From the sequence record PV806175.1: DNA of 64,000 nt. One strand, 5' to 3'. Origin of the DNA: Escherichia phage CCU7. Below are positions 43,772 to 44,631 of this stretch, piece after piece. A program made the position numbers and the translations under genes. The notes beneath the pieces were generated by a model, which was not told where the DNA came from, ran no database searches, and saw only the letters and a list, made by a program, of their open reading frames with translations. Positions within the stretch are counted from its first letter, which is position 1. Each line of letters begins with the position of its first letter.

Positions 43772-43845
43772 GGCCCTGTAGCTCAATGGTTAGCAGCAGT
43801 CCCCTCATAAGGGAAAGGTTACCAGTTCGAATCTGGTCTGGGCCA
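43772..43845 (+). tRNA. tRNA with CAT anticodon (Met or lysidine-modified Ile)
   Basis: Cloverleaf by hand: acceptor GGCCCTG/CTGGGCC (1 mismatch), anticodon loop CTCATAA, T-arm ACCAG-TTCGAAT-CTGGT; no encoded CCA. Confidence 0.7.
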
Positions 43846-43851
43846 TATATT

Positions 43852-43928
43852 CGAGGCATAGCTCAATTGTATGGAGCAACGGACTTCTAATCCGTAGGTT
43901 GAAGGTTAGAATCCTTCTGTCTCGACCA
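43852..43928 (+). tRNA. tRNA-Arg (anticodon TCT)
   Basis: Cloverleaf by hand: acceptor CGAGGCA/TGTCTCG, D-stem GCTC/GAGC, anticodon stem ACGGA/TCCGT with loop CTTCTAA, T-arm GAAGG-TTAGAAT-CCTTC, encoded CCA. Confidence 0.8.
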
Positions 43929-43946
43929 ACTTTAAGTGAGGAAAAT

Positions 43947-44291
43947 ATGAAAGGCAATATTTATCTGGTAGTTCATGATTTAACGTTTTATTTTAACGAA
44001 TATGATACAGTTATTTCTCATCGATTGATTAATTCGCTGTATCAGCATGCCGATTACATCTATGTTCAAAATGAATTCGGACATTGGAAGTTCATTAAAA
44101 ACCGTTCAGGGTTAACTAGTTTTGAATACTTTGATCGTAAAGACCTTTTAAACGAAATCCCATTGCAACATCGGTTTCAGAAACGTGAATCATTATATTA
44201 TTGCCGTCATATACCAAACGCTGAATGTGTTAATGAAGCGATTAATCTATGGCGTCGGCGTCGAGAGCAAATTGATGATATGCCAAAATAA
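43947..44291 (+). CDS. hypothetical protein (114 aa)
   Basis: ATG with GAGG RBS immediately after tRNA-Arg; track ORF starts upstream inside tRNA. Confidence 0.5.
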   Translation: MKGNIYLVVHDLTFYFNEYDTVISHRLINSLYQHADYIYVQNEFGHWKFIKNRSGLTSFEYFDRKDLLNEIPLQHRFQKRESLYYCRHIPNAECVNEAINLWRRRREQIDDMPK

Positions 44292-44294
44292 GAA

Positions 44295-44600
44295 GCCGGG
44301 TCGCTACCGGTAAGTCGTCGGACTGATGTTCCCTGAGTAAGGACTGGTCTTAATAAATCTTTATGATTCGTTAATATCCCCTTACATCACAGCAGAAACG
44401 GCGCACAGAATTATCGATTCGAGGAAATATCTTTGCCGTAAGCCGAGTAGCGTTTTTGACGGAACGTTCGGATATGGTCGAGATATGGCCTTTTAAAAAT
44501 ATTGAGTAGCGTCAACTGCTTAATAACCGGGTTCGAATCCCGGCGTTTCGTACAAACACTTGCCTTAGCAGGTGGAACCCCGACAAGGTTACCGCAAGGC
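44295..44600 (+). ncRNA. candidate small stable RNA(s) with tRNA-like T-arm
   Basis: No convincing plus-strand ORF; contains CCGGG-TTCGAAT-CCCGG T-arm-like element near 44527-44545 and ends at hairpin + T-run terminator; T4 has stable RNAs next to its tRNA cluster. Confidence 0.25.
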
Positions 44601-44602
44601 TT

Positions 44603-44631
44603 AGCCCCTTCCGAAAGGTTGGGGCTTTTTT
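44603..44631 (+). terminator. rho-independent terminator
   Basis: AGCCCC-12 nt-GGGGCT followed by T6. Confidence 0.7.

What the first reader, a model, noticed from the sequence alone, without database searches (positions are those of the whole stretch)
43772..44631. tRNA pair (CAT, Arg-TCT) followed by about 300 nt of probable structured non-coding RNA
Two tRNAs fold cleanly by hand. The Arg-TCT tRNA reads AGA, a rare host codon, and the CAT tRNA could be Met or a lysidine-Ile decoding AUA. Downstream, 44295-44600 lacks a credible plus-strand ORF, contains a near-perfect tRNA T-arm (CCGGG-TTCGAAT-CCCGG) without a matching acceptor stem, and ends at a strong terminator. This resembles the T4 stable RNA species that are co-transcribed with the tRNAs and whose functions remain unclear.
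Basis: partly seen in the sequence, partly recalled or inferred. Interest (0 to 1): 0.4.

Follow-up and report, generated by a model that had tools for sequence, protein, structure and literature searches.

The report
T4 stable RNAs rnaD/rnaC beside two tRNAs
This stretch of an RB69-like (T4-type) phage holds two real tRNA genes, a small gene, and copies of the two long-known T4 "stable RNAs" of unknown function (species 2 and species 1), so the element is ordinary, although one of these RNAs proves to be a conserved tRNA-shaped molecule with two loops that pair with each other.

Summary
Observation confirmed; interpretation supported. The window is a Mosigvirus (RB69-like) genome. 43772-43845 is a CAT tRNA, 72/74 identical to T4 tRNA-Ile, so it probably reads AUA after lysidine modification. 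43852-43928 is tRNA-Arg(TCT). A 114-aa ORF (43947-44291, phrog_3355, function unknown) follows. The "300 nt of structured RNA" holds the orthologues of T4 rnaD (species 2; 44288-44407, 103/120 identical) and rnaC (species 1; 44414-44552, 137/139 identical), then a conserved trailer and a terminator (44604-44631). No paper in the searchable library through 2025 assigns them a function.

Across 31 distinct sequences from at least 13 Tevenvirinae genera, rnaC is a four-way junction:
- 34 of 53 pairs show compensatory changes, and 92% of cells are paired against about 39% in slid controls.
- In most genera it sits inside a tRNA array.
- The loops of its two extra arms (UUGACG, CGUCAA) are complementary and change together in Marfavirus (UUGGCG/CGCCAA).

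I found no published report of this loop-loop pairing. The element itself is already known. Interest is modest.

The parts
43683..43709 (+). Candidate MotA-type middle promoter: TTTGCTTTA, a 12-nt spacer, then TATTAT
   Evidence: Read by eye against the T4 middle-promoter consensus as I recall it. PMC2330249 places a middle promoter just upstream of the T4 tRNA cluster. The sigma-70 scan does not cover this promoter type. Inferred only.
43772..43845 (+). tRNA gene, anticodon CAT; most likely tRNA-Ile2 (lysidine-modified, reads AUA)
   Evidence: ARAGORN. RF00005 at 57 bits. 72/74 identical to the T4 gene annotated tRNA-Ile.
43852..43928 (+). tRNA-Arg, anticodon TCT (reads AGA), CCA encoded
   Evidence: ARAGORN. 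RF00005 at 67.6 bits. Only 44/77 identical to T4 tRNA-Arg and 61/77 to the RB3 type.
43947..44291 (+). 114-aa ORF of unknown function (RB69ORF150c family); its stop codon overlaps the 5' end of rnaD
   Evidence: the ORF listing. phrog_3355, E = 4.9e-50. No Pfam family above threshold. Annotated as a hypothetical protein in SA79RD.
44288..44407 (+). rnaD (T4 species 2 RNA) orthologue: small 5' hairpin (44295-44311) plus a long irregular hairpin
   Evidence: Coordinates mapped from the T4 annotation. 103/120 identical. Folds with z = -2.36. RNAalifold on 15 sequences gives 29 pairs, 8 of them compensatory.
44414..44552 (+). rnaC (T4 species 1 RNA) orthologue: tRNA-like four-way junction
   Evidence: 137/139 identical to T4 rnaC. 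CM R1 scores 161.7 bits. Covariation on 31 distinct sequences: 34 of 53 pairs compensatory.
44415..44421 (+). rnaC acceptor-like stem, 5' strand (CGAUUCG)
   Evidence: Pairs with 44544-44550. Pair 3:70 covaries. The two U·U are invariant except in PM2, where they are U-A.
44422..44491 (+). rnaC arm I (long irregular hairpin); apical loop holds UUGACG at 44456-44461
   Evidence: 21 of its 25 pairs show compensatory changes. The loop motif is UUGACG in 26 of 31 distinct sequences, UUGGCG in the four Marfavirus-type sequences and GAGACG in PM2.
44500..44525 (+). rnaC arm II (10-bp stem); 6-nt loop CGUCAA at 44510-44515, complementary to the arm I loop
   Evidence: 9 of 10 stem pairs are compensatory. 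The loop-loop helix is paired in 99.5% of cells, and one of its pairs covaries A-U to G-C.
44527..44543 (+). rnaC T-arm (CCGGG-UUCGAAU-CCCGG)
   Evidence: stem pair 3 covaries G-C/U-A. The loop is replaced by UGCAUSC in CIP9 and in Winklervirus.
44544..44550 (+). rnaC acceptor-like stem, 3' strand (CGUUUCG), followed by U-A-C-A
44553..44603 (+). Conserved 3' trailer with two small hairpins
   Evidence: The full trailer with terminator (44553-44631) is 72/79 identical to T4. Folds at -32.8 kcal/mol, z = -3.1. Function not studied.
44604..44631 (+). Intrinsic terminator: GCCCCUUCC-GAAA-GGUUGGGGC followed by UUUUUU
   Evidence: The simple scanner missed it because of the internal U·U pairs. PMC2330249 says the T4 transcript terminates after the species I gene.

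Best explanation
This is the tRNA and stable-RNA transcription unit of an RB69-like T4-type phage.

Most likely course of events, with the basis for each step:
- One transcript probably starts at a middle promoter near 43683-43709 and ends at the terminator at 44604-44631. This is inferred from T4.
- It carries tRNA-Ile(CAU), tRNA-Arg(UCU), a 114-aa ORF, rnaD (species 2) and rnaC (species 1).
- The two tRNAs supply decoding of AUA and AGA, which the phage uses often and the host rarely.
- rnaC is not a decoding tRNA. It is a tRNA-shaped RNA. A 7-position acceptor-like stem stacks on a 5-bp T-arm, which gives the 12-bp minihelix that RNase P and the 3' trimming enzymes recognise. In most related genera it sits 5-8 nt from flanking tRNAs, so it is most likely cut out of the precursor by the host tRNA-processing machinery and owes its stability to this fold. 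This step is inferred.
- Where a tRNA has its D and anticodon arms, rnaC has a long arm and a 10-bp arm. Their loops (UUGACG, CGUCAA) pair with each other, either within one molecule or between two. This is shown by conservation and by one covariation event.

Proposed function (inferred, about 30% confidence): the rigid tRNA mimic binds a tRNA-recognising protein of host or phage, as a decoy or modulator. It does not decode codons and does not act as an antisense RNA.

rnaD is a second, less widely conserved structured RNA released from the same precursor.
For: Identity:
- 92% identity to T4 rnaD and rnaC across the whole region. rnaC is 137/139 and rnaD 103/120 identical.
- RB3 records carry the same annotation.

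tRNAs. Codon use.

Transcription unit:
- RNAC and RNAD were detected in T4-infected cells by RNA-seq and validated by a Northern blot with an RNAC probe (PMC9697503).

rnaC structure:
- z = -4.55.
- 31 distinct sequences from Tequatro-, Mosig-, Dhaka-, Gapriver-, Karam-, Kanagawa-, Moon-, Marfa-, Gelderland-, Kagamiyama-, Winkler- and Mosugukvirus.
- 92% of cells paired against 38-47% in slid controls. 34 of 53 pairs compensatory. 0 of 500 shuffles reach the observed values.

Position in tRNA arrays:
- rnaC follows a tRNA ending in CCA plus an AAUUA or AAUAA spacer.
- It precedes a tRNA by 5-11 nt: tRNA-Gly in Karam-, Moon- and Gelderlandvirus, tRNA-Trp in Kagamiyama- and Winklervirus.

Loop-loop pairing:
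- Both loops keep their motifs in 26 of 31 distinct sequences, even where the arm I stem sequence is entirely different.
- The four distinct Marfavirus-type sequences have UUGGCG with CGCCAA.
Against: - No experiment here shows the transcript ends, RNase P dependence or any binding partner in this phage.
- The loop-loop pairing rests on a single covariation event in one lineage. In Pectobacterium phage PM2 only 4 of the 6 pairs remain.
- The T-loop is non-canonical (UGCAUSC) in CIP9 and Winklervirus, so a full tRNA-elbow mimic is not universal.
- A natural Mosigvirus isolate, AV115, lacks rnaD and most of rnaC. As I recall, T4 deletion mutants of this region are viable. Any function is therefore conditional.
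- The decoy or modulator role is a hypothesis without direct support. The only functional hint is a convergent SNP in the rnaD region of a T4-like phage adapting to host ECOR34 (PMC12685909).
Confidence: 0.9

Rival explanations
1. rnaC and rnaD are decayed tRNA genes or processing by-products with no function of their own. They would survive only because they lie in the tRNA operon.
For: - They are dispensable: AV115 has a natural deletion.
- No function is known after 50 years (PMC3014915; PMC9697503).
- tRNA finders call the 3' two-thirds of rnaC a poor tRNA.
- The distal part of rnaD is hypervariable.
Against: - rnaC is held at 137/139 identity between T4 and this phage, while the adjacent tRNA-Arg genes are only 44/77 identical.
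- Stems change by compensatory substitutions in at least 12 genera, while the two loop motifs stay fixed or change together. This is the signature of selection on the RNA itself.
Confidence: 0.12
2. rnaC is a trans-acting base-pairing regulator. The conserved loops would be seeds that pair with host or phage RNAs, and their mutual complementarity would be incidental.
For: - Two nearly invariant, exposed loop motifs sit on variable stems.
- P1/P7 C4 RNA, as I recall, is a phage antisense RNA matured by RNase P that uses two loops in this way.
Against: - The two loops are exact complements of each other and changed together in Marfavirus. A single external target does not predict this.
- No target was identified.
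- Six nucleotides is too short to search for targets meaningfully.
Confidence: 0.15
3. The region encodes small proteins, as many GenBank records annotate: a 74-aa ORF on the minus strand (44411-44635) or a 49-aa ORF on the plus strand (44502-44651).
For: The ORFs exist mechanically. "Hypothetical protein" features lie under the match in many records.
Against: - Substitutions follow base-pairing, not codon structure: 34 of 53 pairs are compensatory.
- The locus is annotated as RNA genes in T4 and RB3, where, as I recall, the species 1 RNA was sequenced directly.
- The region lies between tRNAs with 5-8 nt spacers in other genera.
Confidence: 0.02
4. rnaC is a chargeable tRNA-like molecule, comparable to the tRNA-like domain of tmRNA, that enters the ribosome or an aminoacyl-transfer reaction.
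For: - It has an acceptor plus T-arm minihelix.
- Marfavirus copies encode U-CCA after the acceptor stem.
Against: - Most copies, including the window, encode U-ACA rather than CCA, and the T4 annotation ends at UA.
- The acceptor stem carries two U·U mismatches.
- ARAGORN finds no tmRNA and no tag reading frame.
- RF00005 does not reach threshold on rnaC.
Confidence: 0.05

Closest known systems
Bacteriophage T4 rnaC (species 1 RNA) and rnaD (species 2 RNA), NC_000866 70908-71046 and 71053-71171
   Same: - Direct orthologues: same order (rnaD, 6-nt spacer, rnaC, trailer, terminator).
- rnaC is 137/139 and rnaD 103/120 identical.
- Same location at the end of the tRNA cluster.
   Different: - In T4, tRNA-Arg abuts rnaD with a 1-nt gap. 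Here a 345-nt ORF separates them.
- The window encodes ...CACAG at the 3' end of rnaD where T4 has ...CACCA.
- The phage carries 2 tRNAs instead of 8.
Canonical tRNA (Rfam RF00005) and tRNA-like domains such as that of tmRNA
   Same: - 7-position acceptor stem directly followed by a 5-bp T-stem with a UUCGAAU loop.
- Four-way junction.
- Embedded in tRNA arrays with tRNA-like spacing.
   Different: - No D-arm and no 7-nt anticodon loop.
- 139 nt long, with two U·U mismatches in the acceptor stem and no encoded CCA.
- RF00005 and ARAGORN do not call it. The best clan hit is tRNA-Sec at 16.6 bits against a gathering score of 47.
phi29-family packaging RNA (pRNA); comparison from my own knowledge
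   Same: A phage RNA with two loops that are complementary to each other, and whose complementarity is kept by covariation among relatives. In pRNA these loops pair between molecules to build multimers.
   Different: No sequence or fold homology was tested or expected. T4 packaging needs no RNA. Whether the rnaC loops pair within or between molecules is unknown. This is an analogy only.
P1/P7 C4 and P4 CI phage RNAs matured by RNase P; comparison from my own knowledge
   Same: Small phage RNAs released from longer transcripts because they carry a tRNA-like processing handle.
   Different: Those act as antisense regulators of defined mRNAs. No target is known for rnaC, and its loops pair with each other.

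Membership tests
T4 rnaC (species 1 stable RNA) | Sequence homology to T4 rnaC over its full length | tested here: met
   137/139 identical. CM built on the family scores 161.7 bits, E = 2e-42.
T4 rnaC (species 1 stable RNA) | Position at the 3' end of the tRNA cluster, after rnaD and before a terminator | tested here: met
T4 rnaC (species 1 stable RNA) | Accumulates as a discrete stable RNA of about 140 nt in infected cells | not testable with these tools
   Shown for T4 only (Northern blot in PMC9697503).
T4 rnaD (species 2 stable RNA) | Sequence homology to T4 rnaD and adjacency to rnaC through a 6-nt spacer | tested here: met
   103/120 identical. The 5' 48 nt and 3' 25 nt are nearly invariant in 15 sequences.
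tRNA (RF00005), the two genes at 43772-43928 | Cloverleaf scoring above the Rfam gathering score, and an ARAGORN call | tested here: met
   57.0 and 67.6 bits against 29. ARAGORN.
tRNA (RF00005), applied to rnaC | Cloverleaf with D-arm and 7-nt anticodon loop, scoring above the gathering score | tested here: not met
   No RF00005 hit even at E <= 10. tRNA-Sec scores 16.6 bits against 47. ARAGORN makes no call in the window. The arm II loop is 6 nt.
tRNA-Ile2 (lysidine, CAU anticodon) | CAU anticodon plus orthology to an established tRNA-Ile(CAU) | tested here: met
   72/74 identical to the T4 gene annotated tRNA-Ile. The weak E. coli matches are annotated tRNA-Ile.
tRNA-Ile2 (lysidine, CAU anticodon) | C34 converted to lysidine by TilS; charged by IleRS | not testable with these tools
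   Needs mass spectrometry of the tRNA or charging assays.
tmRNA | tRNA-like domain plus an internal tag reading frame | tested here: not met
   ARAGORN finds no tmRNA. No Rfam tmRNA hit.
Kissing-loop RNAs (functional class, not a homology family) | Two hairpin loops with Watson-Crick complementarity that is maintained by covariation | tested here: met
   The 6-bp complement is paired in 99.5% of cells. One pair covaries, A-U in 27 sequences and G-C in 4, all from one lineage. PM2 keeps only 4 bp. Physical pairing was not tested.

The most novel reading that the evidence does not exclude
rnaC is a widespread, selected tRNA mimic of enterobacterial T4-type phages. Its two extra arms are locked by a kissing interaction, within one molecule or as a dimer. 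On this reading it acts as a decoy or inhibitor of a host tRNA-directed activity. Candidates are a tRNA-cleaving or tRNA-modifying anti-phage defence, or RNase P or the CCA-adding enzyme themselves. rnaD would be a lineage-specific partner that tunes host range, as the convergent rnaD-region SNP on host ECOR34 hints (PMC12685909).
Probability: 0.2. Interest if true: 0.65.

Novelty: already known. Interest (0 to 1): 0.3.

Why it matters
The element itself adds nothing new. RB69-like phages carry the same species 1 and species 2 RNAs that, as I recall, were sequenced from T4 in the 1970s.

The comparative results are more useful:
- rnaC is conserved in at least 12 genera.
- It is embedded among tRNAs.
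- Its structure is strongly supported by covariation.
- Two of its loops pair with each other.
- There is no Rfam family for it, and public genomes routinely mis-annotate it as a hypothetical protein, tRNA-Lys or tRNA-Met.

A covariance model would clean up hundreds of annotations. The loop-loop pairing gives a concrete mutational handle on a question that has been open for 50 years: what these abundant phage RNAs do.

Tried and rejected
- **Mis-spaced scan.** The first IMG/VR pattern scan used the wrong spacing and returned only chance hits.
- **Metagenome scan.** Apart from one close relative, the hits looked like chance matches.
- **Bacterial and archaeal genomes.** Two scans of the 185,579 species genomes found no homologue. 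One gave 0 hits. The other gave 46 GC-rich chance hits, none of which matched the CM at E <= 0.01. The patterns need exact conserved blocks, so distant homologues could be missed.
- **Rfam permissive search.** tRNA-Sec (16.6 bits), isrK (16.5), ceN54 (16.3) and YrlA (14.5) are all far below their thresholds. I rejected them.
- **RNA-RNA duplex prediction.** RNAduplex of rnaD against rnaC, and cofold of an rnaC dimer, only returned full-length artefactual duplexes and are not informative.
- **Literature.** Searches for "p2Sp1", "species 1 RNA" and for kissing plus tRNA-like plus T4 found nothing relevant. The T4 genome review (PMC150520) is not held.
- **Protein-coding reading of 44411-44651.** Rejected (see rival explanations).
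- **Intramolecular versus intermolecular kissing.** I could not decide between these. No 3D or pseudoknot tool is available.

Full report
**1. What is there**

ARAGORN finds exactly two tRNA genes in the 64-kb window: tRNA(cat) at 43772-43845 and tRNA-Arg(tct) at 43852-43928. Rfam's tRNA model scores them 57.0 and 67.6 bits against a gathering score of 29. No other Rfam family reaches threshold anywhere in the window.

A 114-aa ORF follows at 43947-44291. It belongs to phrog_3355 (E = 4.9e-50, function unknown) and has no Pfam family above threshold.

From about 44288 to 44631 there is no conserved ORF. The RNA folds far better than shuffled controls (z = -4.74).

**2. Where the window comes from**

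Megablast of 43700-44700 hits 779 phage records. The best are RB69-like phages of the genus Mosigvirus at 96-98% identity. The non-coding part alone (44293-44640) hits 809 records, including RB69 at 98.8% and T4 at 92.3% over 97% of the query. In T4 and RB3 the features under the match are rnaD (species 2 RNA) and rnaC (species 1 RNA).

Mapping the T4 annotation through a pairwise alignment gives these window coordinates:

| Element | Window coordinates | Identity to T4 |
|---|---|---|
| rnaD | 44288-44407 | 103/120 |
| spacer | 6 nt | – |
| rnaC | 44414-44552 | 137/139 |
| trailer with terminator | 44553-44631 | 72/79 |

**3. What is known about these RNAs**

- PMC2330249 states that T4 transcription from a middle promoter just upstream of the tRNA cluster runs through the whole cluster and terminates after the species I gene. 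The transcript of about 1.75 kb is the precursor of eight tRNAs and of species I and II.
- PMC9697503 classified RNAC and RNAD as late-accumulating RNAs "of yet unknown functions" from RNA-seq, validated by a Northern blot with an RNAC probe.
- PMC3014915 (2010) says their biological roles are unknown.
- PMC12685909 (2025) still calls them of unknown function. It reports one shared SNP in the rnaD region in all three lines of a T4-like phage evolved on the semi-permissive host ECOR34.

I found no paper in the searchable library that assigns a function.

**4. The tRNAs**

- **CAT tRNA.** It is 72/74 identical to the T4 gene annotated tRNA-Ile and 71/74 to its Dhakavirus counterpart. It is only 47-53/75 identical to the other CAU tRNAs of RB3 and VR7. 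From my own knowledge, T4 tRNA-Ile carries a modified C34 and reads AUA, so this gene is most likely tRNA-Ile2.
- **tRNA-Arg(TCT).** It is only 44/77 identical to T4's tRNA-Arg and 61/77 to the RB3 type.
- **Codon use.** In the window's long ORFs AGA makes up 18.8% of Arg codons and AUA 17.2% of Ile codons. This fits the usual codon-supplement explanation.

**5. rnaC is a tRNA-shaped RNA with strong comparative support**

The minimum-free-energy fold of 44414-44552 has four parts:
- an acceptor-like stem
- a long arm I
- a 10-bp arm II
- the T-arm

I collected homologues by BLAST with successively more divergent queries and by IMG/VR pattern scans. I built a covariance model from them and aligned 33 hits, 31 of them distinct. 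They come from Tequatro-, Mosig-, Dhaka-, Gapriver-, Karam-, Kanagawa-, Moon-, Marfa-, Gelderland-, Kagamiyama-, Winkler- and Mosugukvirus, plus one unclassified phage.

Results on this alignment:
- 92.0% of cells form standard pairs, against 38-47% when partners are slid by 1-3 columns.
- 34 of 53 pairs show changes on both sides.
- No shuffle out of 500 reaches the observed values.

The alignment was fitted to the model, which favours the structure. However, an independent MAFFT plus RNAalifold run on 12 sequences already gave the same fold, with 15 of 46 pairs compensatory.

CGAUUCG (44415-44421) pairs with CGUUUCG (44544-44550). Pair 3:70 alternates between A-U and G-C. The two central U·U mismatches are invariant except in Pectobacterium phage PM2, where they are U-A pairs.

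**6. Genomic context of rnaC**

In the Karam-, Moon-, Gelderland-, Kagamiyama- and Winklervirus loci rnaC lies inside the tRNA array. A tRNA ending in ...CCA is followed by AAUUA or AAUAA and then rnaC. The next tRNA starts 5-11 nt after rnaC.

In T4-, RB69-, Dhaka- and Gaprivervirus types the upstream neighbour is rnaD. Its 3' end (...GGCGCACCA-AAUUA in T4) looks like a tRNA 3' end with the same spacer.

I therefore infer that rnaC is excised by the host tRNA-processing enzymes.

After the acceptor stem most copies encode U-ACA. Marfavirus copies encode U-CCA.

**7. A loop-loop pairing**

The arm I loop contains UUGACG (44456-44461). The 6-nt arm II loop is CGUCAA (44510-44515). They are perfect complements, worth about -7.5 kcal/mol as a plain duplex.

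- Both motifs are unchanged in 26 of 31 distinct sequences. This includes sequences whose arm I stem is completely different, such as KLB31, Melville, Ursula and phage 305.
- All Marfavirus-type sequences have UUGGCG with CGCCAA, a compensatory A-U to G-C change.
- PM2 keeps 4 of the 6 pairs.

This is one independent covariation event, so the pairing is well indicated but not proven. I could not decide whether it forms within one molecule or between two. The nearly constant length of arm I and the conserved 9-11-nt A/U-rich linker between the arms are compatible with either. I did not find this pairing described in the searchable literature.

**8. rnaD**

I found rnaD only in Tequatro-, Mosig-, Dhaka- and Gaprivervirus. 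Its first 48 nt or so and its last 25 nt or so are almost invariant. The distal hairpin exists in at least three unrelated versions that all fold. RNAalifold gives 29 pairs, 8 of them compensatory. Support for a defined structure is moderate.

**9. Dispensability, and absence from cells**

Mosigvirus AV115 has a natural deletion. It joins the 5' part of a tRNA-Asn gene to the rnaC T-loop and 3' end, removing tRNA-Arg, the ORF, rnaD and most of rnaC. The RNAs are therefore not essential.

Two scans of one genome per bacterial and archaeal species found no homologue, within the limits of exact-block patterns.

**10. Verdict**

- The element is already known: T4 species 1 and 2 RNAs, here in an RB69-like phage.
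- Shown: identity, structure, conservation, tRNA-array context and loop complementarity with one covariation event.
- Inferred: the promoter, RNase P processing, and any function.
- My best guess for function is a tRNA-mimicking protein decoy or modulator that is useful only on some hosts. It carries about 30% confidence.
- Rivals: a functionless relic (12%), an antisense regulator (15%), a chargeable tRNA-like RNA (5%), and small proteins (2%).

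Noticed in passing
window 43929-44291: Relative to T4, where tRNA-Arg and rnaD are 1 nt apart, a 345-nt ORF (114 aa, phrog_3355, function unknown) sits between them. Both junctions share CCAA (..GACCAA|CTTT.. and ..GCCAAA|ATAAG..), and the stop codon overlaps the mapped 5' end of rnaD. The ORF must be translated from, or cut out of, the same precursor as the stable RNAs, as segB is in T4.
   Followed up: partly
window 43683-43761: A possible MotA-type middle promoter (TTTGCTTTA, 12 nt, TATTAT). After it comes a strong leader hairpin at 43722-43760; the 89-nt leader (43683-43771) that contains it folds at -18.9 kcal/mol with z = -3.64. 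Both lie just upstream of the first tRNA. The hairpin could be a processing site or the terminator of the preceding gene.
   Followed up: partly
window 43852-43928: The tRNA-Arg(TCT) has an unusual T-loop, UUAGAAU, with A where C56 normally stands, and an odd D-loop. VR7 shares both features. The gene is only 44/77 identical to T4 tRNA-Arg, so T4-type phages carry at least three distinct tRNA-Arg(UCU) lineages at this position.
   Followed up: no
L199 1151-1225 (Escherichia phage AV115, OR352945.1): A natural deletion fuses the 5' two-thirds of a tRNA-Asn gene to the rnaC T-loop and 3' end at the shared GGTTCGAATCC. The record annotates the chimera as tRNA-Asn. The known SegB cleavage site lies in tRNA-Asn genes (PMC2330249), so this may be a repair scar.
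   Followed up: partly
L198 468-561 (G2133), L197 8491-8585 (PG7-length contig), and many records: Public annotations and ARAGORN mis-call the 3' two-thirds of rnaC as tRNA-Lys(ttt) or tRNA-Met(cat), or place hypothetical proteins over rnaC and rnaD. Rfam 15 has no family for either RNA.
   Followed up: yes
L184, L185, L193-L195 (Marfavirus) 3' of rnaC: Marfavirus rnaC copies encode U-CCA after the acceptor stem, where all other copies have U-ACA. These are the same copies that carry the compensatory loop change.
   Followed up: no
L004, L061 (Kanagawavirus CIP9 type); L246, L248 (Winklervirus): The canonical T-loop UUCGAAU of rnaC is replaced by UGCAUGC or UGCAUCC while the stem is kept. A tRNA-like T-loop is therefore not required in all lineages.
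   Followed up: no
L043 3794-3909 and L044 2920-3041 (IMG/VR Tequatrovirus-like contigs): The distal hairpin of rnaD is swapped for unrelated sequences that still fold as hairpins, between invariant 5' and 3' ends. It behaves like a cassette.
   Followed up: partly
window 44553-44603: The trailer between rnaC and the terminator is conserved with T4 and has two small hairpins (CACUUGC-CUUA-GCAGGUG and a 4-bp one). Its role was not examined.
   Followed up: no
window 44676-45829: The two ORFs downstream (44676-45140 and 45266-45829) start with the same peptide, MK(S/T)YAEFLTE. The first is phrog_2280, with a weak match to an internal virion protein family (E = 0.008). They may be paralogous internal-protein-like genes.
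   Followed up: no
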